Below are positions 1-61,553 of a stretch of DNA of 64,000 bases, piece after piece (the first letter of the stretch is position 1; the number at the start of each line of letters is the position of its first letter). A program made the translations under genes and the position numbers. A model generated the notes under the pieces. The model saw nothing but the letters and a program-made list of their open reading frames with translations, searched no databases and was not told where the DNA came from. The stretch comes from Chloroflexota bacterium (GTDB lineage: Bacteria; Chloroflexota; Anaerolineae; Aggregatilineales; Phototrophicaceae): positions 12,137 through 76,136 of the forward strand of contig JAPOWK010000093.1 in the NCBI GenBank assembly GCA_026707665.1, written 5' to 3'.

Positions 1-524
1 ACCGTCCGCACCAGGACCGAATACAAGCCCCAGGTGACGGCGGAGACCGCGAGAAAGACATTGCCGAGGAAACTGTCCGAGCTGAAGTCGGCGGCGGCGG
101 GATTCAATATCACGACTACACCGAGGCTCGACAATACGATGCTGGCGAGACGCGCCCTCGTCAGCCGTTCCCGCAGCAATAGCATCGCGAACAAGACGAC
201 AAAAGCCGGCGACGCGCTGGTGACCAGGGCGCCATTCAAAGCCGTCGACAGGTCGGTGCCTACAAACTGCGTTCCCAAGCTGATGCCCAGACCGACGGCG
301 CCAATGCCCAGCATCTCTGCTTTAGTCTGACCGTCAGCGACGGCTTGCCCTCTTGCCCGGTTTAGCGGGAGCAAAACCAGCAGCGCCAGAAGAATGCGCA
401 GCGTCAGCAAAGTAAACGGAGGGACGGAAACGAGCGTCACATCAGAAACGACATACATGCCGCCCCAGATGCTCGCAGCGGAAATGCCGTATACGGCGCC
501 GCGCAGAAGTTCCGACTTCGACAT
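1..524 (-). CDS. EamA/DMT-family transporter, N-terminal part (gene continues beyond the window start)
   Basis: My reverse-strand translation from the ATG (complement of 522-524) reads MSKSELLRGAVYGISAASIWGGMYVVSDVTLVSVPPFTLLTLRILLALLVLLP...ASPAFVVLFAMLLLRERLT...AVSAVTWGLYSVLVRT. It contains several hydrophobic helices in an EamA-like pattern. It is missing from the ORF track because it has no stop inside the window. The + ORF 34..330 is its antisense shadow. Confidence 0.6.
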   Translation of the reverse strand, partial: MSKSELLRGAVYGISAASIWGGMYVVSDVTLVSVPPFTLLTLRILLALLVLLPLNRARGQAVADGQTKAEMLGIGAVGLGISLGTQFVGTDLSTALNGALVTSASPAFVVLFAMLLLRERLTRARLASIVLSSLGVVVILNPAAADFSSDSFLGNVFLAVSAVTWGLYSVLVRT

Positions 525-610
525 CGCTGCCTGATCCAAGTCGTTCCAAGCAAATAATGAGTATGATTGCAGTATGGACGCAATCCTCAAAACAACGAAA
601 GGCTGTAGGG

Positions 611-683
611 GCAAGCCGGTGGCTCGCCCGCTTTTCTAAAGATAGCTTGTCAGTTTTCGCATGACCAACTTGGTTTTAGTTAC
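611..683. repeat. Copy A of a ~75-bp repeat (GC hairpin plus conserved tail TTTCGCATGACNAACTTGGTTYTA), upstream of the TIR-NTPase-HEAT gene
   Basis: gcaagccggtggctcgccc...cagttttcgcatgaccaacttggttttagttac aligns by eye with 7326-7400. Its 3' ~30 bp also aligns with 60648-60678. Confidence 0.7.
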
Positions 684-855
684 GTGAATGCAAGCAAGAA
701 TCTTAGCCGACGCTGCCTGACCGGGACAGCCTTCGTTGCGATGAGAACGAGAAGATTGACGGCGATATTCGATATCTGCCTATCGAGCCAAGAGTATAAT
801 TCTCTTAGCACATCGTAATGCCTGCGCGCCGAGGGCTTCAGTCATCAACGAGAGC

Positions 856-3800
856 TTGATTTATCTTTCCTACCATAACATTGATTTGGCCTACGCCTTT
901 CAATTGTCGAACTTGCTGATTCGCTATTATCGCAACGTCTGGCTGGATCGCTTTGAAATCGGACTGACCGAAGACTGGCGCGCCAACATCCTTGAGGCGC
1001 GGTCGCGGGCGACCGGCGTCATAGTTGTGGTCAGCGATGATTACCTTCAGTCGCCCTATTGCCGCGCTGAGTTCGAGACCTTCCAGGAGCGCGGCATTCC
1101 AGTCACCGCGGTGATTCCGCGTGACTTCTCCACCGAAATGATCGCCGACTTCACCTTCAACGACTGGATTGATTTTCGCCGCTGGTTTGACGATCCCAGC
1201 GATCTCAGCGTGGAGAATCTGTTGAGCCAGGTTCCGCAATCGGAGTCGGTCGCCAAGACCGGCGAACGGCTCGACTATCTTCGGGGCTTCATACAGGAAA
1301 CTGTGTTGGCGCTGTCGAAGATGCCGACGTCCTGGGCTTCGCTGCGCAATGCAGACGCGGACGGCGCGGCTGAGCTGCGACCGCGAATGATTCAGCCGGG
1401 CATGCTGACCGACTGGGACTTCAAGGGCGAAAAAGGCGGGCATTCAATCCCGATTGAGAATCTGCTGGCTTGGTCACAAGAGCAACCGCAATTCGTCATT
1501 CGCGGCGAAACCGGCAGCGGAATAACTTATTTCGCGCGGCTCCTGGCGCTTCAGCAAGCGCAAGCGGCCATTCGTGATGAGAATGAGCCGGCGCCGATAT
1601 GGCTGGACCTGGCGCGCTGGGATGGGAGTCATGGGAATCTCAGCGCGTTCATAGAGTCGCAATGGAGCCTGCTCACCTACTGGCAGCACTGGCTGGACCA
1701 GCATCAGTCCCTGATCGTACTCGACAATTGGCGTGATTTTGCCAACAGTCAGCCGGCGCTCGTCAGCGAACTAACAAGCTGGATTGACGCGAGCCCGAGC
1801 CAGCGTTTCGTCGTCGTATCCGACTTGAAGCCGGTCATGTCGCCAGATTTGCCGACCCTTCAAATCAACGGGATCAGCGCCCAACGCGCGCAGACTTTTG
1901 CCAGCGGCTGGCTGACGCTCGACCAGCAGAACAGCTTCCGCGGGATTCTGAAGCAGAAGAGCGCCTATTTCGACAATTGCCATTTGGACCATTTGTCCAT
2001 CGGCGTGGAATTGCTGACCGCCGACCGGGCGCTGGCCTTCAATCAATGGCACGAGAATCCGATGTCCGCCTTGATCGCCCTGCGAAGCCAACAGGAACCA
2101 AGCCATACTCGTGGCTTGGATAACAGGCAACTGCTGGCCGGGCTGCAACAACTCGCCTGGACGATGATGCTGCAAGACCATCATCGCTTCCTGGCGCGGG
2201 ACTCGGCGCTGAGCCAGTCGATTGATCCGAGAATCATTGACCGCGCGCTGGATCTTGGCTTGATGGATGAGAGCGGTAAGGTTCTCCGCTTTCACTGTGA
2301 GATCTTTCAATTGCACCTGGCGGCTGAGGGGCTCAAACGGGATGGCTTGAACAAGTATCTGACAAGGCCGGAATTCAGCGCCGAGGGCGAGCGCATCCCC
2401 AGGAAATGGGACAAGCTGACGCTGCTTTTGGTCGATGGCCTGGCGGAAGAGAGCCGACTGCAGGTGATTGACCAAATCGCCGACGTTGATCCCTTTATCG
2501 CGGCGGCCTGTTTGACGCGCCATCCGGAACTATCCAGCAGCTATCAGGACGCGCTGATCACGAAACTGGCGCAACTCTGCGCGCAGAATCCGGCGGCGCA
2601 GAGCGCGTTCCGCAGCGCCATCGCTGATCTGCCGAACGCGGACCTGACGGCAGAGCTGTTGATTGCTCAACTGAGCCGTTTCAACAATTCGCAGCAGTTG
2701 TGGCTCTGGCGGGAGATTCGCGCGCTGCCGCTTGAACTGCCGCTGGACTTTATCGGTCTGGTCTCGGAAGTCGATCGCGGATCGCCCGCTGCTATTTCGC
2801 AAGAGTTGACGCCATTTGGCTTATCGCGCTCCCTCGCCTATCTGGTGAAACTGTCCGCCAATCAGGATCAACGCATTCGGCGGAACGCAATCTGGATGCT
2901 GGGCGAGATTAAGTATCTGCCGACGGCGATTATCTTGCTGTCCTGCCTTGAAGAGGGCGAAGGCAGCGATCATGATGAAGTCGTCTTGGCGCTGATGAAA
3001 TACGCCTATTCCGAGCTGCTGGTTCGGGTTCTGCGCTGGTCGCAGGATCACCCGCAGCATCGGCCTGCTGTGATCAGAGCGCTCGCCGAACGCAAACGCT
3101 TGGTGACGAGCCGACTACTGGCGCTGGCCGATGCACGGCGGCTTACGCTCCAGCCCGAATTCTACGATATTGTCGTGAACACAGCCGAAGAGGACATCGC
3201 CATCGGGCTGGCGCAGCTCGCCGAAGACTCAGTCGATTTGCCTGAAACGATCGAGACGGCCATCCACAGCAAGCAGAATGCGGCTGCATTGCGCGCGCGG
3301 CTTGCCGCTTCAATCAAGCACTGGCCCAACCGCCAGGGCATTGAGCAGTTGGTGCCAATCATCGGCCGCGTGCTGAGCGATCCGCCCGAGTCGACCATTG
3401 TCGCCGGCAGCAATATTGAGGCGCTGCTCTACGGCCAGCCACTCTTCGATGATATCAAAGCGCAGGCCGAGCGGGAGACAAGCGAGGGTCTGCCTGACGC
3501 GTTGCAGGCTCAGTTGCGGCACGATGATGGGGAGCAGCGGCGCGGCGCGCTGTACAGCTTGGCTGATCATCCGGCCGATCTCGCCCTGCCCCCGCTGCTG
3601 GAAGCGTCACAGGACGAATACAAGCGCGTGCGGCTGGCTGCCTACGAAATCCTGGCTCGTTTTGAGAACGAGGAGGCGGCGCAGAAGGCGGTAAGCGCCG
3701 CCCTTGCCGATAGCGACATTGAGATTGTTGACGCTGTTATGGAGCTGCTCAAAGCGATGCCGTCGTTAGATTGCGGCGCGCTCATTGACCTGCTCGACAG

Positions 3801-4806
3801 CGAGAATCCAGACACGGTGGCGGCCGCGATTGACCTGCTCGGCTATGCGCGTCATCGACCGGCCGCGGACTATTTGCGTGAGCTTCTATCAGACGAGCGG
3901 CTGCCGGCCTATCGAGGCAAAACAATCGGGCAGCTTGCGCGACAGGCTTTGAGCCTTATCGATACATCGTTGATGGATGGCGAGCGAGGAGCTTATGCTC
4001 CGGGCAAACCCTCAAGCACGCCGGGCGGGGATGACTCGCTTGAATTCAGTGACGAAGAGAAGATCATTCGAACGCTGACCCTTCTGCGCGATGATGATTG
4101 GGGTCGGACGCAGAAGGCGGCCAAATTCTTGCGCAAATTCGCGCGACACTTGCGCGGCACGAATAATCCCGAGATTCTAAAGTTGCTCGGCGGCGCCTTG
4201 CAAGACGACAATTGGAGCGTGCGCTGGGCGAGCGCCGAGGCGCTGGCGATGCTGAACGACCGAAGCGCGATTCCCGCTTTGAGCGCTTGCATCAATGACC
4301 CGAGTTGGATCGTCCAGGTGGCGGTGGTTCGCGCGCTGGTGGAGCTCGGCGCAGTTGGATTGACGGCAAAGCTGGCGCCGCTGCTTCAGAGCTCGCGAAA
4401 AGCCGTGCGCGAAGCGACCGCTGAAGCCTTGGGAGCGCTGGGCGAAGCCGAGGCGATTCCCGCTCTTGGCGAGACGCTCAAGCGCGACGCCGATGAGTTT
4501 GTTCGCTTCGCCGCCCTAAGAGCCATCCATCAACTGGATCCAGGTGGCGCCCGCCCTCATCTGGAACTGGCGCTGAGCGACAGCAGTGTTCATTTGCGCT
4601 GGTTTGCTCTGCGCCAGTTAACATCGCAAATGAACGAGACGGATTTGCCGATTCTGAAGCAGCTGCTCAATGATCACAACAAGCCATCTTGGGAAAATGA
4701 GTCCATTCATGACCTCGCCATTTCGGCGCTGCAGCGCATCGCTACCGATGAGTCCAGGGCACTGCTTGATGCCGTCTCGCTCGCGGAAAAGCGGACGAGC
4801 CCATGA
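856..4806 (+). CDS. TIR domain / P-loop STAND NTPase / HEAT-repeat protein (1316 aa)
   Basis: TTG start at 856. The N-terminal ~120 aa are TIR-like (IYLSYHNIDLAYA..., VIVVVSDDYLQSPYCRAEFE with Glu72). Walker A is GETGSGIT (aa 217-224, nt 1504-1527) and a Walker-B-like SLIVLD lies at aa 285-290. The C-terminal ~600 aa consist of HEAT/PBS-lyase-type repeats (NWSVRWASAEALAMLNDRSAIPAL, DPSWIVQVAVVRALVELG, VREATAEALGALGEAEAIPAL). Confidence 0.8.
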   Translation: MIYLSYHNIDLAYAFQLSNLLIRYYRNVWLDRFEIGLTEDWRANILEARSRATGVIVVVSDDYLQSPYCRAEFETFQERGIPVTAVIPRDFSTEMIADFTFNDWIDFRRWFDDPSDLSVENLLSQVPQSESVAKTGERLDYLRGFIQETVLALSKMPTSWASLRNADADGAAELRPRMIQPGMLTDWDFKGEKGGHSIPIENLLAWSQEQPQFVIRGETGSGITYFARLLALQQAQAAIRDENEPAPIWLDLARWDGSHGNLSAFIESQWSLLTYWQHWLDQHQSLIVLDNWRDFANSQPALVSELTSWIDASPSQRFVVVSDLKPVMSPDLPTLQINGISAQRAQTFASGWLTLDQQNSFRGILKQKSAYFDNCHLDHLSIGVELLTADRALAFNQWHENPMSALIALRSQQEPSHTRGLDNRQLLAGLQQLAWTMMLQDHHRFLARDSALSQSIDPRIIDRALDLGLMDESGKVLRFHCEIFQLHLAAEGLKRDGLNKYLTRPEFSAEGERIPRKWDKLTLLLVDGLAEESRLQVIDQIADVDPFIAAACLTRHPELSSSYQDALITKLAQLCAQNPAAQSAFRSAIADLPNADLTAELLIAQLSRFNNSQQLWLWREIRALPLELPLDFIGLVSEVDRGSPAAISQELTPFGLSRSLAYLVKLSANQDQRIRRNAIWMLGEIKYLPTAIILLSCLEEGEGSDHDEVVLALMKYAYSELLVRVLRWSQDHPQHRPAVIRALAERKRLVTSRLLALADARRLTLQPEFYDIVVNTAEEDIAIGLAQLAEDSVDLPETIETAIHSKQNAAALRARLAASIKHWPNRQGIEQLVPIIGRVLSDPPESTIVAGSNIEALLYGQPLFDDIKAQAERETSEGLPDALQAQLRHDDGEQRRGALYSLADHPADLALPPLLEASQDEYKRVRLAAYEILARFENEEAAQKAVSAALADSDIEIVDAVMELLKAMPSLDCGALIDLLDSENPDTVAAAIDLLGYARHRPAADYLRELLSDERLPAYRGKTIGQLARQALSLIDTSLMDGERGAYAPGKPSSTPGGDDSLEFSDEEKIIRTLTLLRDDDWGRTQKAAKFLRKFARHLRGTNNPEILKLLGGALQDDNWSVRWASAEALAMLNDRSAIPALSACINDPSWIVQVAVVRALVELGAVGLTAKLAPLLQSSRKAVREATAEALGALGEAEAIPALGETLKRDADEFVRFAALRAIHQLDPGGARPHLELALSDSSVHLRWFALRQLTSQMNETDLPILKQLLNDHNKPSWENESIHDLAISALQRIATDESRALLDAVSLAEKRTSP

Positions 4807-6548
4807 AGATCTTCGTCAGTTATGCCCGTGTCGACAAGCCCTATTGCATCCGCATCATCGAAACTTTGCATGCGCACGACGTCTGGTACGACCAGCGGCT
4901 TTACGCCGGTCAAGACTGGTGGAAAGAGATCCTCCGCCGCCTGGACTGGTCGGAAGTCTTCGTCTATTTGCTGTCGCCGGATTCAGTGGCGTCGCTCTAC
5001 TGCCGCCGCGAGCTGGAGATTGCGCTGCGGTTGAAGCGCGACATCATCCCGGTGCTTATCAATGGCGACACCGTGCTGCCAGAGAATATGAAAGACTGGC
5101 AATATGTCGACCTGCGCGACAGCCTGACGGTGGAAAACGTCTCGCAACTGCTGAATGCGATTCTGCTGGTCGAACGACAGCGAGCCGGGGCCGCGCCGAC
5201 CTTAACGGTCACCAACGATGCGGCCGAAAGCAGCCCCGCCGCCACCAGCAAACCGGCTGAGCTGATCAGCGAAGCCGTAAGCGCGCTGGAAAAGGGCGAC
5301 TACGACAATGCCATCCTGTTGCTGAAACAAGCGAAAACGAGCGGTTATCAATCGCGATTCGTCAGCCTTGACAAATTGCTGCGCATCGCCGAAAGCGCGG
5401 TTGCAGATCGGACCGAGACGCGTGAAATTCAGCGAGAATACCAGCATATTGTTGCCCTGTTCGCCTTTGAAAGCACGCGCAAATTGGCTTGCGAAGCCTT
5501 GGCGGAATTCAAAAGAGAATTCGGCGATTATGATCCACAGGACTTGCAGCGCCATTGCCAGCCGGTCGCGCCGATTCGAGAATCAGCAGACGGCAGGACC
5601 CGCACACTAACGGGACCGCGCCGCGCGAACCCGGCTCAACCGACAGCGAATGACCGCGCCTCAAATCAGAAGCAAGGGCGCTCCATCGCTATTCAGGCCA
5701 GCAGCCAGGCATTGACCAGACCACGCGCTCAGAACGCGATTCCAGTTGCCGCGACAACGCAAGCCGCCAAGGTGGATGCCCCGACCATCCGTCAGATTAC
5801 CTCCTCTGATGAGGATTCGCTCGGCGTCAAGGAAGTCCTGCCTATGCTACAATGGTGCGACGTTCCTCATGGCACAGTCACCATTTCCAGCATCGTGGGC
5901 GCCGATGAAGACTTCGGCGAAGTTACCGAACAGGTGGATAATTTTGTGATGAGCAAGTTCCCGGTAACCAATGCGCAATTCGCGATATTCGCTGACGCCG
6001 AGGATGGTTATCGCAATCCTCGCTGGTGGGATTTTTCCCCGCATGCGCAGCGCTGGTTCAAATTACGCAAAGGGGTAGCCAAGTCTCGATTCAGCGGCGA
6101 CGCGCGACCGCGGGAAAACGTAAACTGGTATGAAGCAGTGGCTTTTTCCAATTGGCTCGGCAATCTGCTGGGCATGAAAATTACGCTGCCGACCATTGCC
6201 CAGTGGCAGCGCGCGGCAAAGGGCGACGATGATCGTTATTTCCCCTGGGGCGACGAATATGATGAGGAGCACTGCAATACGCTCGAAACAGGCCTCAAGA
6301 CCACCACGCCAGTGGACCGCTATCGGATGGGCGCAAGCCCTTATGGCATATATGACATGGCGGGAAATGTTTGGGAGTGGACCTCGAACACCGCGGCCGC
6401 GGCCGAAACGGGGCGAGACTTCCGGCGCGCCGTCGCTGGCGGCAGCTTTGTCAGCCCTTGTGACCGGGCGCATACGACATTTCGCTATTATCTTGATCCG
6501 CGCGTGCGCTATTCGTCGATCGGCATTCGATTGGTGGGCTTGACCTAG
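4803..6548 (+). CDS. TIR domain protein with C-terminal FGE-sulfatase (SUMF1-like) domain (581 aa)
   Basis: The ATG overlaps the upstream stop (ATGA, 4803-4806). The N-terminus is TIR-like (KIFVSYARVDKPY, VFVYLLSPDSVASLYCRRELE, Glu70). A Pro/Ala/Gln/Thr-rich linker follows. The C-terminus carries FGE-sulfatase fold motifs (PVTNAQFAIF, NVNWYEAVAFSNWLG, YDMAGNVWEWT, GGSF...IGIRLVG). Confidence 0.8.
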   Translation: MKIFVSYARVDKPYCIRIIETLHAHDVWYDQRLYAGQDWWKEILRRLDWSEVFVYLLSPDSVASLYCRRELEIALRLKRDIIPVLINGDTVLPENMKDWQYVDLRDSLTVENVSQLLNAILLVERQRAGAAPTLTVTNDAAESSPAATSKPAELISEAVSALEKGDYDNAILLLKQAKTSGYQSRFVSLDKLLRIAESAVADRTETREIQREYQHIVALFAFESTRKLACEALAEFKREFGDYDPQDLQRHCQPVAPIRESADGRTRTLTGPRRANPAQPTANDRASNQKQGRSIAIQASSQALTRPRAQNAIPVAATTQAAKVDAPTIRQITSSDEDSLGVKEVLPMLQWCDVPHGTVTISSIVGADEDFGEVTEQVDNFVMSKFPVTNAQFAIFADAEDGYRNPRWWDFSPHAQRWFKLRKGVAKSRFSGDARPRENVNWYEAVAFSNWLGNLLGMKITLPTIAQWQRAAKGDDDRYFPWGDEYDEEHCNTLETGLKTTTPVDRYRMGASPYGIYDMAGNVWEWTSNTAAAAETGRDFRRAVAGGSFVSPCDRAHTTFRYYLDPRVRYSSIGIRLVGLT

Positions 6549-6599
6549 ACTGAAGCCTTTGCCGCCACTGAAAACCAGGACTGTTGTGATGAAGGGATC

Positions 6600-7121
6600 G
6601 TGATGATGAGCGCGAATGAAGGCAAGGGGCATGGCAGCATGTCGCTGCGACCTGATATCAACATTGACATTGATCACTTGTCGGTAACCGGGCACGTAGT
6701 ATTCGCCGGGCGCGACGGCCAGGTGAAGGTGCAGACTGGCGGCGATGTCGCCCAGCACACCAACCAAACAGTGACCGTAGGCGGCGTTGAAACGACGCCG
6801 CAGGAATTCGACATGATGCTCCAATGCATACGCAATGTCGAGGACACCATCCAGAAGGAGAATCTGGCGACCGAAAACCGAGAGGCGGCGATGCATGACC
6901 TGCACACCGTAGAGGCGCAGCTATCCTCCAGCAAGAAGCCCAATCCGCGGATTCTGATGCGCGCTGCGAAATCGCTGCTGCGCTTTTCGCCCGCATTAAC
7001 CGCCGCCGCGCTGACACTCTTCGACCAACCTTTGGTTGGCGCCATACTCGCCAGCGTCGGGGAAGCCGCCATCAACTTCCAGGAGGCGATCTCGGGGCAG
7101 CGAGCCTCCAAGAAAATCTGA
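6600..7121 (+). CDS. Small hypothetical protein (173 aa) of the TIR/STAND cluster
   Basis: GTG/ATG start preceded by GAAGGGA. I recognise no family. It contains LSVTGHVVFAGRDGQVKV, which matches a segment of the next protein, followed by a helical C-terminal half. Same strand, 51 nt after the TIR-FGE gene. Confidence 0.5.
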   Translation: MMMSANEGKGHGSMSLRPDINIDIDHLSVTGHVVFAGRDGQVKVQTGGDVAQHTNQTVTVGGVETTPQEFDMMLQCIRNVEDTIQKENLATENREAAMHDLHTVEAQLSSSKKPNPRILMRAAKSLLRFSPALTAAALTLFDQPLVGAILASVGEAAINFQEAISGQRASKKI

Positions 7122-7325
7122 GTCGAATCATGCCGCAGATTTTATTCCGCGAAGCGCGCCGCCCCACCCTGCGCGCGCGTGCAAATCTCATACTCGGGCG
7201 ATCGCGGGCCCGGTTCTAAGTTTCGCTTCATACGACTCTTTAGCCGAGCAGAAGTAGTTACGAGTAAGTAATGAGAGTGATCGCCATTTGAATGCAATTT
7301 TGAATACAATGCAAAGTGTGTACGA

Positions 7326-7400
7326 GCGAGCCGGCAGCTCGCCCACTCGTGCTATAGATTTTCAGTTATTTTCGCATGACTAACTTGGTTCTACTGAGAC
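7326..7400. repeat. Copy B of the ~75-bp repeat, ending 1 nt before the NACHT gene start codon
   Basis: gcgagccggcagctcgccc...cagttattttcgcatgactaacttggttctactgagac, immediately followed by aATG (7402). Confidence 0.7.
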
Positions 7401-7401
7401 A

Positions 7402-9819
7402 ATGAATCGACCCATTCAGCAAGTCCCGGAAAAGGCAATCACCCGGCCCACGCGGGCCGCTAGCAGCCAAATGATGATCACGACGCCGGCCGCCTGGCGC
7501 AGCTTCGTGCAGACAAACTGGGCTCATTTGAAACGGCAGGCGGACAGCGCGGCGCTGGAATCGCCCTATCAGAAGCTGGTCATGATGGTCTTTGCGCCAG
7601 TCATGCCCAACCCAAATACCAAGCTGACCTTGCTGCGCCGTCTGCTCAAGAAATTCCGCTATTGCGAATCACTGAGCAAACGCATGACCGAGATCTATCG
7701 CGATCGCAATTACGCGCGCACGGCGGAAGAATTGGCTCGCCTCGAGCTCGTGCCAGAAAAATTGGATACAGACGAACTGATCGGACTGGACTGGCTCATC
7801 GTCGCCACAGGCGGTCTGGACGGCTCGGCGAATCAAGGCGGGCAGGCGATTCAATTCGCGCGCAACCTGCTGGAAGCTATGCGCGAACAGCGCGACTACC
7901 CATCGGCGGTGCGCGTCCAGGCGGGCAGCATCTCGGCTGGCGGTCATGTGATCTTTGCCGGACAAGATGTCAACATCGTCGCCGAACACTATCACGGCAA
8001 CAAGTCGGCGCTGAAAGCTTACCTTGCCGCGGTTCGCTCCGAGTGGAATATTCCGACGACGACCATCCATCCGGCATCGCAGCATCACACGCCGGCGATG
8101 CTGCACCAATTGTATACGCCGGTGGATATCTGGACCGACCAACGCCAATTTCACAACGTCGGCGATGAAGAACTGAACGCCCGGCGCTACCAGGCGATTG
8201 AGCGGGACATGGGTTATGTGCGCGAGTCCGTATTTGAAGTCATCTCGGCGAATCCGCTGATCGTCATCACGGGCGCCGCCGGGACCGGCAAAAGCTCACT
8301 TTGCCGCTTTATCGTGACCGCGCTCGCCTATGCCTGTGACCCGCGGGCGGAACGGCAGGACAAGGTCAAAGGGCTGGAGATGCTGGGCGCTTCCTGGATT
8401 CATGGGCCCATCCTGCCCGTCTATGTCAGCTTGCGCGACTTTGCCAGTTCGCCCGATCTGTTTCCGAAATCGCTGGCAGCCGCTTCATCAGAGCAGCTCT
8501 TGAATTATGTGAAGAATGCGACCGGCAATCTGGCGCCGCACCTGGAAGCCTACCTGACCCAATCCGATGTGCCCACGCATGGCAGCTTGATCGTTCTCGA
8601 TGGCCTTGACGAAGTGTATGAAGAAAATGACCGCATCATCTTGCAGCGGATCATCGAGAATTGGGCCGATCGTTTTCCCAGCTGCCGCGTCATCGTCACC
8701 AGTCGCACCTACGCCTACCGCCACGATTCGCGCTGGCGCCTCTCCGAGCGTTTCGCCTCCGCTGAATTGGCGCCCTTCACCTGGCAGCAGGTCAAATCCT
8801 ACATTGAGCGCTGGTACGCCAACGTCGCTGAGACCCGGCCCAGCGTGTTGGGCGGGCGCGCCGTCGCCGCCAGGCAGGGCGCCTTGATGGCGGCCGATCT
8901 CAACCAAGCCATACGCGCGAATCGAGCGCTCTGGCCTCTAGCCCGTCAGCCGCTGATGCTGGCGCTGCTCACGCTGATTCACGAAGACTACAAGCAGCTG
9001 CCGGACAAGCGCGCGGAACTGTACGAGCATACGGTGGAATTGCTCGATCGCTGGAATATCCCGTCGCCGGCGGACAAGCTGCATGAAAAGCTGGCCAATA
9101 TCAACCTGGACCGCATGCGGGCGGCGCTGAAGCTGATCGCCTTTGAGCTGCACTCGGAGCAGCAGAGTTATCAGCGCTATCCAACCATTGTCCACCGCGC
9201 GCGTCTGCTCGACAAATTGATTGAGCAGCAGTCATTCGGGCGCGGCTTGGGCGCCGGCATTGAAGACGTACTGGAATATCTGGCGACGCGCAACGGCATC
9301 CTGGTTTCGGACGCTCCCAATCTTTACCGCTTTCCCCATCTCACGATTCAGGAGTATCTGGCGGCTAGCGCCTTGATCGAGTTTTACGACGAATGCAGAA
9401 TGCCATCCGGCTTGCGGCCCCACAGCGCGGATGGCTGGACTTTTCCTGAGAACATTGTCGCCCTGCTCTGCCATGATTATGCGCGCTGGCGCAATGTCGC
9501 GCTCTTCGCCGGCGCCATCATCGCGGCCGGCAAATGGCAAGACATGCGCTGGCAGCTCATAGACGAGTTGCTGCCGACCCGCCTTGACGCCCCCTTGTCG
9601 GAACAGGAGCTGCACTGCATCAGTGTTGGCGCCGAAATCTGGGGAGAGAGCTGGTTGAAGTCGCGAACGCGCGGCCAGCTCGTCATTGAAGCGCACCTGG
9701 TCCGCTGCCTGCGGCACATCCACGGCGACGAGCGCATTGACGCGCCGGAACGCGCCAACAATTATGCGGTCTTGGCGCAGATTTCTCGCGCGCAATCGGC
9801 CCGCCCAAGCAAGAGATAG
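7402..9819 (+). CDS. NACHT-family STAND NTPase (805 aa)
   Basis: Walker A is VITGAAGTGKSSL (aa 288-300, nt ~8263-8301). Walker B is LIVLDGLDEV, followed by RVIVTSR, the usual NACHT order. There is a ~280-aa N-terminal region of unknown type and a helical C-terminal region with no obvious repeat sensor. Confidence 0.8.
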   Translation: MNRPIQQVPEKAITRPTRAASSQMMITTPAAWRSFVQTNWAHLKRQADSAALESPYQKLVMMVFAPVMPNPNTKLTLLRRLLKKFRYCESLSKRMTEIYRDRNYARTAEELARLELVPEKLDTDELIGLDWLIVATGGLDGSANQGGQAIQFARNLLEAMREQRDYPSAVRVQAGSISAGGHVIFAGQDVNIVAEHYHGNKSALKAYLAAVRSEWNIPTTTIHPASQHHTPAMLHQLYTPVDIWTDQRQFHNVGDEELNARRYQAIERDMGYVRESVFEVISANPLIVITGAAGTGKSSLCRFIVTALAYACDPRAERQDKVKGLEMLGASWIHGPILPVYVSLRDFASSPDLFPKSLAAASSEQLLNYVKNATGNLAPHLEAYLTQSDVPTHGSLIVLDGLDEVYEENDRIILQRIIENWADRFPSCRVIVTSRTYAYRHDSRWRLSERFASAELAPFTWQQVKSYIERWYANVAETRPSVLGGRAVAARQGALMAADLNQAIRANRALWPLARQPLMLALLTLIHEDYKQLPDKRAELYEHTVELLDRWNIPSPADKLHEKLANINLDRMRAALKLIAFELHSEQQSYQRYPTIVHRARLLDKLIEQQSFGRGLGAGIEDVLEYLATRNGILVSDAPNLYRFPHLTIQEYLAASALIEFYDECRMPSGLRPHSADGWTFPENIVALLCHDYARWRNVALFAGAIIAAGKWQDMRWQLIDELLPTRLDAPLSEQELHCISVGAEIWGESWLKSRTRGQLVIEAHLVRCLRHIHGDERIDAPERANNYAVLAQISRAQSARPSKR

Positions 9820-9832
9820 AAAGGACGCCTGA

Positions 9833-12136
9833 ATGATACCCATTCGAATGACTTGCCTGATTGTGTTGTTACTTTCCCTAAGTTGGGCGCAGGCGCAGGA
9901 GAATGACACGCAAGTCGTAATCACGAGGGAAGACGCCCCGTCGGCACGCAATATAAGACTGACTACGGTGGTGACCGAATTTGATCGCCCTCTGTATGTA
10001 ACACACGCCGGAGACGGCTCCGGGCGGCTCTTCGTGGTCGAACAAGGCGGGAAGATCTGGATCGTGCGCGCGGGGGTAAAGTCGGCGCTGCCTTTTCTGG
10101 ACGTCTCGCAGTTGATTTCACCGATTGCCTTGACTGGCGAATACACCGAACGCGGTCTGCTCGGGTTGGCATTTCACCCCGACTACAAGAACAACGGACA
10201 GCTATTCATCAATTATACTGACCGCAAGGGAGATACTGTAGTCTCCCGATATCGCGTTTCAGCGGAGAATCCGGACACCGTCGACGCATTAAACGCCGAC
10301 CTCATACTTTATTTGCGCCAGCCACACGAGTTCCACAATGGCGGGCATCTCGCTTTTGGTTCTGACGGCTATCTTTACATGGCGCTTGGCGACGGCGGGC
10401 CCGAGAAAGACCCGGCAGGCGCGGGTCAGAATCGGCAGATACTGCACGGATCGATTTTGCGCGTAGATGTGGATAGTGGCTCGCCCTACGTGATTCCGGC
10501 GGATAACCCCTTCGTCAACGACGCAGGCGCGCGCGACGAAATCTGGGCATACGGGCTGCGCAATCCCTGGCGCTTTAGCTTCGACCGAGCGACTGACGAT
10601 ATGTACATTGGCGATGTCGGCGATAGAAAGTGGGAAGAAGTCAACTTTGAACCTGCCGATAGCAGCGGCGGCCGGAATTATGGCTGGAATGTGTATGAAG
10701 GGAACGCAGAATTCGCCGGTGGCGAAGCGCCAAACTATTCGCCTCCATTCTTCGTATATGGCCACGAACATGGCTGCTCGGTGACCGGCGGTTACGTCTA
10801 TCGCGGTGAGGCGATTCCCGACTTGCAGGGCGTTTATCTCTTTGGCGATTTCTGCAGTGGCCGCATCTGGGCGTCCTGGCGCGATCCGGGCTACCATCGG
10901 CGCGTGATCGAGCTGATGGATACAGACCTGACGATAAGCAGCTTTGGTGAAGACGAAGCGGGCGAAACGTATCTGGTTGATTTCAATCGCGGAAGACTGT
11001 ATCGCATTGACCCCTATTTCGTCACCGCGGTCACAACGCGGGATCAGGCGCCGCAAGTTGAGAATTTCTCGCTCACGAGAGTCGCGGCTGGCTTTCACAG
11101 GCCGCTATACGTCACGCATGCTGGCGATGCTTCCGGCAGGCTCTTCCTGGTCGAGCAGAGCGGCAAAATTTGGATCTTGCGCGATGGCGTAAAATCTGGA
11201 CAGCCCTTCCTTGATATTTCGCATTTGATCTCACAGGTCGCGCTAACAAGCCAGTATACCGAACAGGGATTGTTGGGCTTGGCATTTCATCCCGAGTACG
11301 CGACGAACGGCAGGTTCTTTGTCAACTATACGGACAGGGACGGCAGTACCCTTGTCTCGCGCTATCAAGTTTCACTGGACAATGCAGATTTTGCCGATGC
11401 CGCCAGCGCGCGAGTCATCTTCCAGTTGCCGCAGCCATACAACAACCACAACGGCGGGCATATTGACTTCGGGCACGATGGCTATCTGTATATCGCGCTT
11501 GGCGATGGCGGTTCGGCAAATGATCCGCTTGGCGCCGGGCAAAATCGGCAGCTTCTGCTCGGCTCAATCCTGCGAATTGATGTGGACAGCGCAAGCCCCT
11601 ACGCCATTCCACCGGACAATCCCTTTGTCAGCGACGCGTCGGGCCTCGACGAAATCTGGTCATACGGCTGGCGCAATCCCTGGCGTTTCAGCTTCGACCG
11701 CGCGACCGGGGATATGTACATCGCCGATGTCGGACAGAATCAATGGGAGGAAGTCAATTTCGAGCCAGCTTCCAGCATAGGCGGCGAGAATTATGGCTGG
11801 AACGTCTTTGAAGGAAACACCCAATTCTCCGGCGGCAGCGCGCCGGATGCGGTGGATCCCTTCTTTGTTTACGGGCATTCGCATGGCTGCTCTGTCACCG
11901 GCGGTTACATTTATCGTGGCGAAGCGATACCAGATCTTCAGGCAGCTTATCTCTTCGGCGACTTTTGCAGCGGGCGCATTTGGGCGACATGGCGCGACAG
12001 TGCATACATTTGGAGAGCGGCCGAACTGTTTCAGGCTGGATTTGAGATCAGCAGCTTCGGCGAGGACGAAGCGGGCGAAATGTACGTCATAGATTATGGC
12101 GGCGCGCTCTATCGATTTGATCCCGTTGACAACTAA
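9833..12136 (+). CDS. Secreted tandem-duplicated PQQ-dependent sugar (glucose/sorbosone) dehydrogenase-like beta-propeller protein (767 aa)
   Basis: N-terminal signal peptide (MIPIRMTCLIVLLLSLSWAQA). Two homologous halves are offset by ~371 aa. Each carries RPLYVTHAGD.SGRLF.VEQ.GKIWI, GLLGLAFHP.Y, NGGH..FG.DGYLY.ALGDGG and CSVTGGY.YRGEAIPDLQ. Confidence 0.75.
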   Translation: MIPIRMTCLIVLLLSLSWAQAQENDTQVVITREDAPSARNIRLTTVVTEFDRPLYVTHAGDGSGRLFVVEQGGKIWIVRAGVKSALPFLDVSQLISPIALTGEYTERGLLGLAFHPDYKNNGQLFINYTDRKGDTVVSRYRVSAENPDTVDALNADLILYLRQPHEFHNGGHLAFGSDGYLYMALGDGGPEKDPAGAGQNRQILHGSILRVDVDSGSPYVIPADNPFVNDAGARDEIWAYGLRNPWRFSFDRATDDMYIGDVGDRKWEEVNFEPADSSGGRNYGWNVYEGNAEFAGGEAPNYSPPFFVYGHEHGCSVTGGYVYRGEAIPDLQGVYLFGDFCSGRIWASWRDPGYHRRVIELMDTDLTISSFGEDEAGETYLVDFNRGRLYRIDPYFVTAVTTRDQAPQVENFSLTRVAAGFHRPLYVTHAGDASGRLFLVEQSGKIWILRDGVKSGQPFLDISHLISQVALTSQYTEQGLLGLAFHPEYATNGRFFVNYTDRDGSTLVSRYQVSLDNADFADAASARVIFQLPQPYNNHNGGHIDFGHDGYLYIALGDGGSANDPLGAGQNRQLLLGSILRIDVDSASPYAIPPDNPFVSDASGLDEIWSYGWRNPWRFSFDRATGDMYIADVGQNQWEEVNFEPASSIGGENYGWNVFEGNTQFSGGSAPDAVDPFFVYGHSHGCSVTGGYIYRGEAIPDLQAAYLFGDFCSGRIWATWRDSAYIWRAAELFQAGFEISSFGEDEAGEMYVIDYGGALYRFDPVDN

Positions 12137-60647: not shown

Positions 60648-60678
60648 ATTTCGCATGACAAACTTGGTTCTACTGAGA
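60648..60678. repeat. Copy C (3' ~30 bp only) of the repeat found upstream of the two STAND NTPase genes
   Basis: atttcgcatgacaaacttggttctactgaga compared with 7369-7398 ttttcgcatgactaacttggttctactgaga. Confidence 0.65.
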
Positions 60679-60818: not shown

Positions 60819-61553
60819 ATGAGACATCCGCCTTCAAAACCCCCCAATCCGAATGCCCCGAAACCGACTTTTAGCGTGGTCATCCCTTGCTATAACGAGG
60901 TCAACACGGTGAAAGATATCGTGACCCGCGTGCTTGCCGAAGAGATTGTCGACGAAGTCATCATCATTGATGACGGCTCGACAGATGGCTCGCGCGATGT
61001 GTTGATGGCGATTGAGGCGCAGGGCAGCAGCAAGGTCCGCGTCCTTTACCATGAGCGAAATCAAGGCAAGGGCGCCGCGCTCGTGACTGGATTCCGCGAA
61101 ACCACCGGCGAGGTGATCATCATTCAGGATGCCGATTTCGAGTACGACCCGCGCGAATACGGGCTGCTGCTGCGGCCGATACAGGAGGGGGTCGCGACAG
61201 TCGTGTATGGATCGCGCTTTCTCGGCGGCACGCGCAAGGCAATGAATTTCTGGAATATGGTCGCCAACAAAGGTTTGACGCTCATTACCAATATCTTATT
61301 CAACGCCATCATCAGCGACATGGAAACATGCTACAAATGTTTTCGCCGCGAAGTGGTCGAAGACATGAAGATCAACGCGCGCGGTTTCGAATTCGAGCCG
61401 GAATTCACCGCCAAAGTGCTGCGGCAAGGCATACGCATCGTTGAAGTGCCCATCTCCTATTACGGGCGCGAATATGACGAGGGTAAAAAGATTAAATGGA
61501 CCGACGCCCCAATCGCCGCCTGGACGCTTCTGCGCTATCGATTCTTCGGCTGA
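60819..61553 (+). CDS. Family 2 glycosyltransferase (polyprenol-phosphate sugar synthase-like)
   Basis: FSVVIPCYNEVNTV...IIIDDGSTDGS...IIQDADFEYDP...VYGSRF. Confidence 0.8.
   Translation: MRHPPSKPPNPNAPKPTFSVVIPCYNEVNTVKDIVTRVLAEEIVDEVIIIDDGSTDGSRDVLMAIEAQGSSKVRVLYHERNQGKGAALVTGFRETTGEVIIIQDADFEYDPREYGLLLRPIQEGVATVVYGSRFLGGTRKAMNFWNMVANKGLTLITNILFNAIISDMETCYKCFRREVVEDMKINARGFEFEPEFTAKVLRQGIRIVEVPISYYGREYDEGKKIKWTDAPIAAWTLLRYRFFG

What the first reader, a model, noticed from the sequence alone, without database searches (positions are those of the whole stretch)
611..9819. Candidate uncharacterised TIR / STAND-NTPase conflict system: TIR-NTPase-HEAT, TIR-FGE-sulfatase domain, small protein and NACHT NTPase on one strand
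Seen in sequence: four consecutive same-strand genes.
- 856-4806 encodes a 1316-aa protein with an N-terminal TIR-like domain, a P-loop (GETGSGIT) with an SLIVLD Walker B, and ~600 aa of HEAT repeats.
- 4803-6548 encodes a second TIR-like domain fused through a low-complexity linker to an FGE-sulfatase fold. Its ATG overlaps the upstream stop (ATGA).
- 6600-7121 encodes a 173-aa protein of no recognisable family.
- 7402-9819 encodes a NACHT NTPase (GAAGTGKS / LIVLDGLDEV) with no recognisable effector or repeat sensor.

Both TIR-like domains keep the glutamate after the conserved Cys (CRAEFE, CRRELE). This is the position of the catalytic Glu in NAD+-cleaving TIR domains.

Established knowledge: TIR domains are NADase or signal-generating effectors in Thoeris and other bacterial immune systems. 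STAND/NACHT NTPases (Avs, bNACHT) are bacterial pattern-recognition switches. FGE-sulfatase domains recur as ligand-binding modules in NTP-dependent conflict systems of multicellular bacteria.

Inference: the parts are distributed as effector plus switch plus sensor in gene 1, effector plus sensor without a switch in gene 2, and a switch with neither in gene 4. This suggests a multi-component system rather than four independent genes. I do not recognise this arrangement as a named defence system.
Basis: partly seen in the sequence, partly recalled or inferred. Interest (0 to 1): 0.85.

Follow-up and report, generated by a model that had tools for sequence, protein, structure and literature searches.

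The report
Conserved four-gene TIR–NACHT signalling cassette
Four neighbouring genes in a sponge-associated Chloroflexota genome (two TIR proteins, a small unknown protein and a NACHT ATPase) form one real, co-inherited module built like an innate-immune receptor system, yet its core evolves as slowly as a housekeeping chaperone.

Summary
The four ORFs and their domains are real. G1 is TIR + STAND-like P-loop + HEAT. G2 is TIR + FGE-sulfatase (FGS). G3 is a 173-aa orphan. G4 is a NACHT ATPase.

The genes are functionally linked, not just adjacent:
- About 66 species-level genomes keep the order G1-G2-G3-G4 at one syntenic locus.
- Six more distant genomes keep the order with unrelated flanks.
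- A still more distant clade keeps HEAT protein + TIR-FGS + G3 + NACHT in rearranged orientations, with an added receiver-domain gene.
- The remotest G3 relative still sits between an FGS protein and a NACHT protein.

New points:
- G3 and G4 share a 27-residue β-motif (hhalign E 4.7e-7). It is the best-conserved part of both proteins and appears to change in parallel.
- G1's NTPase is degenerate. In this genome the Walker-A lysine is Ile. G4's motifs are invariant.
- Both TIR glutamates are invariant.
- The FGS domain lacks the FGE cysteine pair and is not hypervariable.
- G4 is more conserved than ClpB in 47 of 47 genomes.

Verdict: a new variant of the STAND/TIR "conflict-type" systems of multicellular bacteria. 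A defence role is plausible but unproven. Its core-gene-like evolution is atypical for defence.

The parts
556..690 (+). Upstream non-coding region of G1 carrying copy 1 of a short repeat (core TTTTCGCATGACCAACTTGGTT at 654-675). Possible regulatory element.
   Evidence: Three copies in the window, none expected by chance. The region is homologous to the G1-upstream region of the nearest relative, L009.
856..4806 (+). G1: TIR (aa 1-115) + degenerate STAND/NACHT-like NTPase (aa ~206-420; Walker A GETGSGIT, Walker B LIVLDN) + helical region + HEAT repeats (aa ~860-1316).
   Evidence: Pfam TIR_2 3.2e-13 and HEAT_2 4.7e-45. hhalign to the G4 NACHT core, E 2e-6. E72 invariant 71/71. Walker-A Lys present in 57/72 homologues but Ile here. 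This is the fastest-evolving gene of the cassette.
856..1200 (+). G1 TIR domain with CRAE motif (E72).
3433..4806 (+). G1 HEAT-repeat module. This is the only part of G1 retained in the most distant clade, as a 409-450-aa stand-alone protein.
4803..6548 (+). G2: TIR (aa 1-120) + helical linker (161-260) + low-complexity linker (261-345) + FGE-sulfatase/FGS lectin-like domain (346-581). Its start overlaps the G1 stop.
   Evidence: Pfam TIR_2 1.6e-22 and FGE-sulfatase 4.6e-39. E70 invariant 74/74. PDB relatives are ToxD, EgtB, FGE and TvpA; the FGE Cys pair is absent. Within the core clade the FGS domain is 81 % identical, and its last 42 aa are 90 % identical.
6600..7121 (+). G3: small orphan protein. 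It has a variable leader, a conserved β-motif (aa 16-42), a helical hairpin (67-109) and a moderately hydrophobic C-terminus.
   Evidence: No Pfam, NCBIfam or PDB match. The family is tiny: 37 clusters among 1.84 billion representatives, all stand-alone proteins of 140-180 aa apart from a few shorter, probably truncated, entries. It is as conserved as ClpB.
6645..6725 (+). G3 copy of the shared 27-residue motif (…INIDIDHLSVTGHVVFAGRDGQV).
   Evidence: hhalign G3 16-42 vs G4 166-192: prob 92.6 %, E 4.7e-7. 93 % identity across the core clade.
7262..7400 (+). G3-G4 spacer carrying copy 2 of the repeat (core at 7369-7390). Its 3' half is homologous to the G1-upstream region of relative L009. A promoter-like site lies at 7281-7310.
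   Evidence: In orthologous loci this spacer is only 22-134 nt.
7402..9819 (+). G4: all-α N-domain (aa 26-163) + shared β-motif (166-192) + NACHT NTPase (281-475; GAAGTGKS, LIVLDGLDEV) + winged-helix/helical C-terminal region. No repeats.
   Evidence: Pfam NACHT 1.1e-11. AF2 pLDDT 72; Foldseek to NLRP3 NACHT, E 9e-6. Walker A and B invariant in 77/77. More conserved than ClpB in 47/47 genomes.
7897..7977 (+). G4 copy of the shared motif (YPSAVRVQAGSISAGGHVIFAGQDVNI).
   Evidence: (95 % identity in the core clade).

Best explanation
The four genes are one vertically inherited, operon-like STAND/TIR signalling cassette. It is restricted to filamentous Anaerolineae-type Chloroflexota, labelled Aggregatilineales or Phototrophicaceae in the records; many of the genomes come from sponges and corals.

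Shown:
- The invariant core is a HEAT-repeat module, a TIR-FGS protein, the small protein G3 and the NACHT ATPase G4.
- G4 is the only component with a strictly intact NTPase.
- G3 and G4 share a conserved 27-residue motif.
- Both TIR domains keep the catalytic-position glutamate.

Inferred mechanism:
1. G1 (HEAT) and G2 (FGS, a non-catalytic lectin-like fold) are made in a fixed ratio through translational coupling. Together they bind a conserved ligand.
2. Ligand binding drives TIR-TIR assembly. The result is NAD+ cleavage or production of an NAD-derived signal.
3. G4 acts as the ATP-dependent oligomerising switch or hub. It is coupled to G3 through the shared motif by homotypic docking, as in the 'effector-associated domain' logic. 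G3 serves as the adaptor or executor.

The most likely output is growth arrest or death of a cell in the filament, that is, an NLR-like immune or regulated-cell-death response. The trigger would be conserved rather than rapidly evolving.
For: Domains.

Linkage:
- Same order and same flanks in about 66 species-level genomes.
- Same order with unrelated flanks in L007, L008, L068, L072, L074 and L083.
- Rearranged [<-TIR-FGS <-HEAT][G3-> REC->][<-NACHT] in four different contexts: L165, L166, L167 and L169.
- G4 convergent with G2-G3-REC in L079 and L081, and with G3-REC in L082, where the locus ends before any G2.
- The remotest G3 relative (about 22 % identity) still lies between an FGS protein and a NACHT protein, with an overlapping stop/start.
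- The 4-nt G1/G2 overlap occurs in 63/71 loci.

G3-G4 coupling:
- Profile-profile match E 1.1e-5 and E 4.7e-7, at a single site in the 805-aa G4. There is none in G1 or G2.
- The motif is the most conserved segment of both proteins, 93 % and 95 %.
- Partner motifs change together: FAG/FAG in the core and middle clades, IAG/IAG in the far clade, VAVTG/VAIAG in L168.

Switch assignment: G4 Walker A and B are invariant in 77/77. G1 has lost the Walker-A Lys in 15/72 and its Walker B is D-N.

TIR competence: the Glu is invariant. The G2 CxxE motif aligns with the WCxxE of the NADase Cat1.

General logic: it matches the NTP-dependent conflict systems of multicellular bacteria (PMC7159879, PMC8195603).
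Against: - There is no experimental or contextual evidence of defence. No PADLOC system is called, and the neighbours are EamA, GSDH, PMI and ClpB.
- The locus is fixed and syntenic across about 66 species.
- G4 is more conserved than ClpB in 47/47 genomes, and G3 equals ClpB.
- The presumed sensor FGS is 81-90 % conserved, with no hypervariable region.
- These features are unusual for arms-race immune genes.
- No recognisable receptor for a TIR-made nucleotide (SLOG, SAVED, Macro) is present.
- The G3 and G4 N-terminal folds are unknown.
- AF2 does not model the motif as β. It gives low or medium confidence there.
- The motif covariation rests on only a few independent lineages, and L074 is an exception.
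Confidence: 0.5

Rival explanations
1. This is a lineage-specific housekeeping or regulatory signalling module, not immunity. The cassette senses an endogenous or host-derived conserved ligand, for example a metabolite, a cell-envelope or glycan fragment, or filament or symbiosis status. It regulates physiology through NAD+-linked signalling and a NACHT switch. In the distant clade a receiver domain ties it to phosphorelay signalling.
For: - G4 is more conserved than ClpB in 47/47 genomes. G3 is about equal to ClpB. FGS is 81-90 % conserved.
- The position is fixed among core genes in about 66 species, with no mobile-element or defence neighbours. Insertions next to the cassette are peptide ABC transporter genes.
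- A stand-alone REC gene is embedded in the far-clade cassette.
- Only 198 of 589 STAND clades are defence-associated, and non-immune STANDs are interspersed among them (PMC13581612).
Against: - The TIR + STAND + repeat and TIR + FGS architectures are those that recur in predicted or proven conflict systems (PMC7159879, PMC8195603).
- G1 evolves fast, 23 identity points below ClpB. This fits a diversifying sensor.
- In the middle clade the cassette sits beside a transposase and a SLATT pore-type effector gene.
- The Nature 2026 criteria would score a TIR-carrying STAND as defence-related.
Confidence: 0.3
2. This is a sensor/helper relay of the Thoeris or plant-TNL type. The TIR proteins G1 and G2 are the sensors and make an NAD-derived small molecule. 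G4, through its unknown α N-domain or through G3, is the helper that binds the signal, oligomerises and executes.
For: - Two TIRs have invariant catalytic Glu.
- The 'sensor' G1 is fast-evolving and has a dispensable or degenerate P-loop. The 'helper' G4 is ultra-conserved, has an intact P-loop and has no sensor repeats.
- G4 and G3 carry uncharacterised domains that could bind a ligand.
Against: - No known nucleotide-sensor domain (SLOG, SAVED, Macro, EDS1-like) is detected.
- In the far clade only one TIR remains.
- The idea rests purely on analogy.
Confidence: 0.15
3. This is amyloid-like (BASS/HET-s-type) templating. Activated G4 oligomers expose their 27-residue motif and template the same motif in G3. 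G3's helical, hydrophobic C-terminal half then attacks the membrane.
For: - A short G/V/Q/T-rich motif is shared by an NLR, just N-terminal of its NOD, and by an adjacent small protein. The motif changes in parallel in the two partners.
- The motif region has low AF2 confidence in the monomer.
- The G3 C-terminus is borderline hydrophobic (KD19 1.55).
- There is precedent in filamentous bacteria and in E. coli Bab/Agp (10.1101/2020.01.06.895854, 10.1101/2024.11.07.622273).
Against: - The topology is reversed relative to BASS pairs. The motif is N-terminal in G3. In G4 it is internal, after a 160-aa domain.
- No Bell/HeLo-like domain is detectable.
- The pseudo-repeat hypothesis failed (E 0.27).
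- AF2 puts part of the G4 motif in a helix.
Confidence: 0.15
4. The genes are adjacent by chance. Four unrelated genes simply travel together because the whole neighbourhood is syntenic in one clade.
For: In the core clade the flanking ABC, APH, EamA, GSDH, PMI and ClpB genes are conserved too. Synteny alone therefore proves nothing there.
Against: The cassette persists without any of those flanks. It persists in three different gene orders and orientations, down to 22 % identity for G3 and 40 % for G4.
Confidence: 0.02

Closest known systems
NTP-dependent conflict systems of multicellular bacteria (Kaur, Burroughs, Iyer & Aravind 2020, PMC7159879; STAND-FGS/EAD systems, Kaur et al. 2021, PMC8195603)
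   Same: - Occurs in a filamentous lineage.
- Has TIR effectors.
- Has an FGS lectin-like domain at the C-terminus with other domains N-terminal to it.
- Has HEAT super-structure repeats.
- Has an inactive-looking STAND.
- A short module is shared between the N-terminal region of an NTPase and a separate small protein (the 'EAD principle').
- Has an orphan receiver domain in some versions.
   Different: - No vWA or MoxR components.
- TIR is fused directly to FGS without an NTPase.
- The shared G3/G4 module is a 27-residue motif, not one of the described EAD domains. No Pfam hit was found.
- FGS is not DGR-diversified.
- There is a single copy at a fixed core locus, with very slow evolution. 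The described systems are multi-copy and diversifying.
Bacterial NACHT (bNACHT) and Avs antiviral STAND proteins
   Same: - G4 has a bona fide NACHT module (Pfam; Foldseek to NLRP3).
- G4 gives a weak NCBIfam hit to the antiphage NACHT protein EruA (E 1.6e-6, far below the cut-off).
- G1 has the tripartite effector-NTPase-repeat layout.
   Different: - Those are mostly single-gene systems that carry a recognised effector and a large sensor.
- G4 has neither. G1's NTPase is degenerate.
- No association with a defence island.
Thoeris (ThsB TIR sensor + ThsA effector)
   Same: TIR domains with the catalytic Glu. Weak PADLOC ThsB hits to the G2 TIR (best E 7.2e-6).
   Different: No ThsA-type (SIR2-SLOG, Macro or TM) effector. 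The TIRs are fused to FGS or to STAND-HEAT. NACHT and G3 components are present.
NLR-associated amyloid signalling pairs (BASS/Bell in filamentous bacteria; Bab/Agp; fungal HET-S/NWD2)
   Same: An adjacent NLR and a small protein share a short β-prone motif located N-terminal of the NOD. Found in a multicellular host lineage.
   Different: - The motif position is reversed in the small protein and internal in the NLR.
- No Bell/HeLo domain.
- Amyloid behaviour is untested.
- Two TIR proteins are additional obligatory partners.
Plant TNL sensor / helper NLR networks
   Same: A fast-evolving TIR-NTPase-repeat protein with a dispensable P-loop sits next to a highly conserved, repeat-less NLR with an intact P-loop.
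   Different: This is analogy only. There is no homology beyond the TIR and STAND folds, and no EDS1-like relay.

Membership tests
TIR NADase / signal-generating TIR domains | TIR fold with the catalytic glutamate (WCxxE-type motif) | tested here: met
   TIR_2 E 3.2e-13 (G1) and 1.6e-22 (G2). E72 and E70 invariant in 71/71 and 74/74. The G2 CRRE motif aligns with the Cat1 WCWDE motif.
TIR NADase / signal-generating TIR domains | Demonstrated NAD+ cleavage or cyclic ADPR-type product | not testable with these tools
   Needs biochemistry.
NACHT-clade STAND NTPase (NLR-like) | NACHT P-loop core with intact Walker A (GxxxxGK[ST]) and Walker B (hhhhDG/DE), followed by a winged-helix region | tested here: met
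   G4: Pfam NACHT 1.1e-11. Foldseek to NLRP3 NACHT E 9e-6. GxxGxGKS and LLVLDGLDEV invariant in 77/77.
NACHT-clade STAND NTPase (NLR-like) | The same motifs in G1 | tested here: not met
   The G1 core is homologous to the G4 NACHT core (hhalign E 2e-6). But the Walker-A Lys is Ile here and is lost in 15/72 homologues. Walker B is D-N, and there is no sensor-1 Arg. G1 is therefore best described as a degenerate, iSTAND-like domain.
bNACHT / Avs single-gene antiviral STANDs | A recognised N-terminal effector and a C-terminal sensor in the same protein; enrichment next to defence genes; phage protection | tested here: not met
   G4 has no recognisable effector or sensor. The neighbours are housekeeping genes. 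Phage protection cannot be tested here.
Thoeris | ThsB TIR protein together with a ThsA effector (SIR2/SLOG, Macro or TM) | tested here: not met
   Only weak ThsB hits (E 7e-6 to 6e-3). No ThsA-like hit in any cassette gene.
vWA-MoxR ternary systems (VMAP / iSTAND; Kaur 2020) | MoxR AAA+ ATPase + vWA protein + VMAP or iSTAND third component | tested here: not met
   No vWA or MoxR gene in the window cassette or in any related locus. Only the iSTAND-like, FGS and TIR themes are shared.
EAD-coupled STAND systems (Kaur 2020/2021) | The same adaptor module on the N-terminal side of the NTPase and on a separately encoded partner | tested here: met
   G3 aa 16-42 ~ G4 aa 166-192: hhalign E 1.1e-5 and 4.7e-7. 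The module is a short motif, not a described EAD family.
BASS / NLR amyloid signalling pairs | A motif shared by the NLR N-terminus and the C-terminus of an adjacent Bell-domain effector | tested here: inconclusive
   A shared motif is present. However, it is N-terminal in G3 and internal in G4 (after aa 26-163), and no Bell-like domain is detected. Pseudo-repeats are not supported.
BASS / NLR amyloid signalling pairs | Fibril formation and cross-seeding | not testable with these tools
   Needs ThT/EM or prion assays.
Formylglycine-generating enzyme (catalytic FGE) | The conserved Cys pair of the copper site in the C-terminal segment | tested here: not met
   Alignments to solved FGEs stop at WEWTSN. 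The corresponding segment, GGSFVSPCDRAHTTFRYY, has a single Cys. The domain is therefore an FGS lectin-like binding module.
DGR-diversified FGS/CLec sensors | A hypervariable C-terminal VR (with a template repeat and reverse transcriptase) | tested here: not met
   The last 42 aa of the FGS domain are 90 % identical across the core clade. No reverse-transcriptase gene appeared in the cassettes inspected. The rest of the genome was not searched.

The most novel reading that the evidence does not exclude
This could be a bacterial sensor-NLR / helper-NLR pair with a templated executor.
- G1 is TIR + P-loop-degenerate STAND + HEAT. With G2 (TIR-FGS) it would form the diversifying sensor arm.
- G4 is an ultra-conserved 'helper' NACHT. 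It would be activated by TIR catalysis or by direct contact.
- G4 would pass the signal to the small protein G3 by homotypic, possibly prion-like, pairing of a 27-residue motif. G3 would execute membrane damage or growth arrest.

This would be a prokaryotic counterpart of plant TNL-helper networks combined with fungal HET-S-type signalling. It would be fixed as a core gene set in a symbiotic, filamentous Chloroflexota lineage.
Probability: 0.15. Interest if true: 0.85.

Novelty: new variant of a known kind. Interest (0 to 1): 0.6.

Why it matters
Bacterial NLR-like systems are mostly studied as single, mobile, fast-evolving defence genes in model Proteobacteria. This case is different.
- The labour is split across four proteins.
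- The active switch (G4) and its small partner (G3) are as conserved as, or more conserved than, ClpB.
- The TIR-STAND-HEAT arm evolves fast and is losing its P-loop.

If it is immune, it is a natural example of sensor/helper division and of motif-mediated adaptor coupling in bacteria. If it is not, it is a well-defined case of a TIR/NACHT module recruited to core physiology in a major group of animal-associated Chloroflexota.

Either way it offers three things:
- a compact, testable set of mutations (E72/E70, the G4 Walker A, and the shared motif);
- a new small-protein family, G3;
- a new NACHT-associated N-terminal domain.

Tried and rejected
1. **GSDH (9833-12136) and the 469-aa coiled-coil/2×2TM protein (12133-13542, minus strand) as cassette members: rejected.** Both are absent from the middle and far clades. 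Peptide ABC transporter genes are inserted between G4 and GSDH in L045 and L052. The 469-aa protein gives no SLATT hit.
2. **G3 as a two-pseudo-repeat (HET-s-like) protein: rejected.** Repeat 1 vs repeat 2 gives E 0.27, and repeat 2 vs the G4 motif gives E 0.06.
3. **Fold or sequence identification of G3 and of the G4 N-domain: nothing found.** For G3, the best Foldseek hit has E 1 and the PDB profile search is at E ≥0.045. The G4 N-domain gave no significant PDB sequence match and no Pfam hit.
4. **Testing 'coreness' with a metagenome scan anchored on the neighbouring PMI gene: uninformative.** That collection holds no close relatives (best 58 % identity) and shows no cassette nearby.
5. **Genome scan with broad G3 alignments: refused.** There was no sufficiently conserved stretch. 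The G4 alignment was used instead.
6. **PADLOC PDC-M14B similarity of G3 (E 2.4e-5): could not be interpreted.** No paper mentions PDC-M14.
7. **Rfam search of 1-12500: no RNA family.**
8. **Paralogues of the cassette elsewhere in the window: none.**
9. **The repeat motif upstream of G1 as a broadly conserved operator: not supported.** Beyond the window it appears only in L009 and weakly in L001, L041 and L061.

Full report
**Observation**

The window carries four consecutive + strand ORFs exactly as described.
- G1 (856-4806, 1316 aa) has an N-terminal TIR_2 domain (E 3.2e-13) and C-terminal HEAT repeats (HEAT_2 E 4.7e-45).
- G2 (4803-6548) has TIR_2 (E 1.6e-22) and FGE-sulfatase (E 4.6e-39) domains. 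Its ATG overlaps the G1 stop codon.
- G3 (6600-7121) matches no Pfam or NCBIfam family. It gives only a weak PADLOC hit, PDC-M14B at E 2.4e-5.
- G4 (7402-9819) is a NACHT protein (Pfam E 1.1e-11). Its AlphaFold2 model (pLDDT 72) matches the NLRP3 NACHT domain (Foldseek E 9e-6, prob 1.0).

Upstream lies a divergently transcribed EamA-type transporter gene. Downstream come a glucose/sorbosone dehydrogenase gene, a coiled-coil membrane protein on the opposite strand, PMI and ClpB. No PADLOC system is called. Only weak single-domain hits appear.

**Is the adjacency meaningful?**

G3 has 172 close homologues, all from Chloroflexota MAGs. A scan of one genome per GTDB species with a G4 alignment returned 76 loci. 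All are labelled Chloroflexota, Anaerolineae, Aggregatilineales or Phototrophicaceae, and many come from sponge or coral metagenomes.

In about 66 of these loci the order G1-G2-G3-G4 is kept, but so are the flanks (ABC transporter, APH, EamA | cassette | GSDH, coiled-coil protein, PMI, ClpB). On its own this proves only clade-wide synteny. The decisive evidence comes from more distant relatives.

1. Six loci have G4 at 51-58 % identity: L007, L008, L068, L072, L074 and L083. A JGI contig shows the same. All keep the order G1-G2-G3-G4 with none of the window's flanks.
2. In loci with G4 at about 40-44 % identity the genes are re-oriented but still together.
   - L079 and L081 have G4 convergent with G2-G3-REC. 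L082 has G4 convergent with G3-REC, and the locus ends before any G2.
   - L165, L166, L167 and L169 have [<-TIR-FGS <-HEAT-only protein][G3-> receiver domain->][<-NACHT] in four unrelated genomic contexts.
3. The remotest G3 relative retrievable has about 22 % identity. It still lies between an FGE-sulfatase protein and a NACHT protein, with an overlapping stop/start.

The 4-nt G1/G2 overlap is present in 63 of 71 loci. The G3 family is tiny: 37 clusters at 50 % identity among 1.84 billion representatives. Its members are always stand-alone proteins.

Chance adjacency is therefore excluded. The conserved core is a HEAT module + TIR-FGS + G3 + NACHT. The TIR and NTPase portions of G1 are additions, or retentions, of the core and middle clades.

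**Anatomy and residues**

Both TIR domains keep the glutamate three residues after the conserved Cys. This is E72 in G1 and E70 in G2, invariant in 71/71 and 74/74 homologues. In G2 the motif aligns with the WCxxE of the NAD+-cleaving CRISPR-associated TIR protein Cat1.

G4's Walker A (GxxGxGKS) and Walker B (LLVLDGLDEV) are invariant in 77/77 homologues.

G1's NTPase is homologous to the NACHT core (hhalign prob 89.5 %, E 2e-6), but it is degenerate.
- Its Walker B is hhhhD-N.
- The sensor-1 Arg is missing.
- The Walker-A lysine is replaced in 15 of 72 homologues.
- In this window it is Ile (GETGSG-I-T, codon ATA at 1522-1524), whereas the nearest relatives have Lys.

G4 is the conserved switch.

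The FGE-sulfatase domain is related to ToxD, EgtB, FGE and the DGR variable protein TvpA. It lacks the FGE cysteine pair. It is 81 % conserved across the core clade, and its last 42 residues are 90 % conserved. It is a non-catalytic lectin-like binding module with no DGR-style hypervariability.

**A link between G3 and G4**

BLASTP noticed GHV(V/I)FAG(R/Q)D in both proteins. Profile-profile comparison confirms it.
- The whole-family alignments give a 39-column match (prob 82 %, E 1.1e-5).
- My ortholog alignments give a single 27-column match, G3 aa 16-42 to G4 aa 166-192 (prob 92.6 %, E 4.7e-7). No counterpart exists in G1 or G2 (E 0.6-0.8).

This segment is the most conserved part of each protein in the core clade: 93 % in G3 and 95 % in G4. 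The two copies also track each other across clades:
- core and middle clades: VVFAGRD / VIFAGQD;
- far clade: VVIAGRD / V(V/I)IAGRD;
- L168: VAVTGKGD / VAIAGGD.

L074 is an exception.

In G4 the motif sits between a confidently modelled all-α N-domain (aa 26-163, pLDDT 85-90) and the NACHT module. In G3 it follows a variable 15-residue leader and precedes a helical hairpin and a moderately hydrophobic C-terminus. Neither the G3 fold nor the G4 N-domain matches anything in Pfam or the PDB.

I read the shared motif as a homotypic docking element. It follows the 'effector-associated domain' logic of Kaur et al. (PMC7159879, PMC8195603) and, more speculatively, the NLR/effector amyloid motifs of filamentous bacteria (10.1101/2020.01.06.895854). 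The topology differs from BASS pairs, and my test for HET-s-like pseudo-repeats failed.

**Evolutionary behaviour**

I compared identity to the window protein in the 47 species-level loci that have complete data.

| Gene | Identity relative to ClpB |
|---|---|
| G4 | higher in 47/47 (median 84.3 % vs 79.0 %) |
| G3 | +0.2 points |
| G2 | -8.4 points |
| PMI | -12.7 points |
| G1 | -22.9 points |

The locus is fixed among housekeeping genes. The only insertions seen next to it are peptide ABC transporter genes. This is not how mobile, arms-race defence genes usually behave.

Other observations point the opposite way. G1 is fast-evolving. In the middle clade the cassette sits next to a transposase and is followed by a DUF4231/SLATT_1 pore-type effector gene. 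[quoted passage not shown] Both readings are therefore legitimate.

**Most likely mechanism**

Shown:
- The four-component linkage.
- The intact G4 NTPase versus the degenerate G1 NTPase.
- The invariant TIR glutamates.
- The non-catalytic, conserved FGS domain.
- The shared G3/G4 motif.

Inferred:
- G1 (HEAT) and G2 (FGS), made in a fixed ratio by translational coupling, bind a conserved ligand and bring their TIR domains together.
- TIR assembly cleaves NAD+ or makes an NAD-derived signal.
- G4 acts as the ATP-dependent oligomerising hub and is coupled to G3 through the shared motif.
- G3 acts as adaptor or executor.
- The output is growth arrest or death of a cell in the filament.

I put about 0.5 on this NLR-like immune or regulated-cell-death reading. 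I put about 0.3 on a non-immune, endogenous-signal role. The sensor/helper-relay and amyloid-templating variants are sub-hypotheses at about 0.15 each. Chance adjacency is ≤0.02.

**Comparison with known systems**

The cassette shares its parts list and logic with the NTP-dependent conflict systems of multicellular bacteria. Shared features are TIR, an FGS domain with N-terminal partner domains, HEAT repeats, an inactive STAND, adaptor pairing and orphan receiver domains.

It fails the defining features of the named families:
- No vWA or MoxR, so it is not a VMAP/iSTAND ternary system.
- No ThsA, so it is not Thoeris.
- G4 has no effector or sensor and is not in a defence island, so it is not a typical bNACHT or Avs.
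- It has no Bell domain, and the motif topology is reversed, so it is not a canonical BASS pair.
- No hypervariable FGS, so it is not a DGR target.

My literature searches found no description of this gene set. I rate it a new variant of a known kind.

**Side observations**

The window's G3-G4 spacer is 280 nt, against 22-134 nt in relatives. It is a mosaic. Its 5' half matches the G3-G4 spacer of the nearest relative, L009. Its 3' ~150 nt match L009's region upstream of G1. A piece of the G1 upstream region, which includes a promoter-like site and a 22-30-nt core repeat, has therefore been duplicated in front of G4 in this genome. A third copy of the core lies upstream of a glycosyltransferase gene at 60.6 kb.

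Noticed in passing
window 654-675, 7369-7390, 60648-60678 (extended copies ~556-690 and ~7262-7400): A short dispersed repeat (core TTTCGCATGACnAACTTGGTTCTACTGAGA) occurs three times, with 0 expected by chance. The copies lie upstream of G1, immediately upstream of G4, and ~150 nt upstream of a GT2 glycosyltransferase ORF (60819-61553). The G4 copy is part of a ~150-nt duplication of the G1-upstream region, judged by homology to relative L009. It may be a promoter or operator element. Outside the window it was found only in L009 and weakly in L001, L041 and L061.
   Followed up: partly
window 1522-1524: Codon ATA (Ile) replaces the Walker-A lysine of G1. The five nearest relatives have Lys (AAA/AAG-type). 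It is either a genuine inactivating substitution or a single-base assembly error.
   Followed up: partly
window 9833-12136: The glucose/sorbosone dehydrogenase gene directly after G4 is a tandem-duplicated fusion of 767 aa with two GSDH domains and a signal-peptide-like N-terminus. Most relatives have a ~395-aa single-domain gene. L025, L042 and L057 also show long matches of about 760-800 aa.
   Followed up: partly
window 12133-13542 (minus strand): A 469-aa protein with an internal duplication; each half is coiled-coil plus two transmembrane helices. It is conserved at 62-91 % in the core clade, always convergent with GSDH. It has no Pfam family, is not SLATT by HMM, and is absent from the middle and far clades.
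   Followed up: partly
L007 12595-13659 (and a JGI contig): In the middle clade a 354-aa DUF4231 + SLATT_1 protein (a predicted 2TM pore-type effector) is encoded directly after G4. In L007 a DDE transposase lies directly upstream of G1.
   Followed up: partly
L079 12336-12737, L081 3716-4138, L082 9995-10435, L165 10551-10958, L166, L167, L169: In the most distant clade a stand-alone response-regulator receiver domain gene (132-146 aa) always follows G3. No histidine kinase lies adjacent, although L166 has a PAS/HATPase_c gene about 7 kb away.
   Followed up: partly
L045 3331-7369, L052 12409-16213 (also L066): A three-gene Opp/Dpp-type peptide ABC transporter block (two permeases plus a family-5 solute-binding protein) is inserted between G4 and GSDH in some genomes. 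This marks the downstream boundary of the cassette.
   Followed up: yes
L083 12728-22295: A giant ORF of more than 3189 aa, running off the locus, starts about 400 nt after G4 in one middle-clade genome. It was not annotated.
   Followed up: no
L091 313-999 (minus strand): In an unrelated metagenome contig, a protein 27 % identical to the N-terminal 213 aa of G2 (TIR plus helical linker) lies next to a PMI gene. No other cassette gene is nearby.
   Followed up: no
L008 2412-3548 and the JGI contig; L169 17401-18561: Glycosyltransferase genes with precomputed hits to Pfam GT4-conflict (PF20706) lie near some middle- and far-clade cassettes. The hits overlap generic GT4 families, so their significance is unclear.
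   Followed up: no
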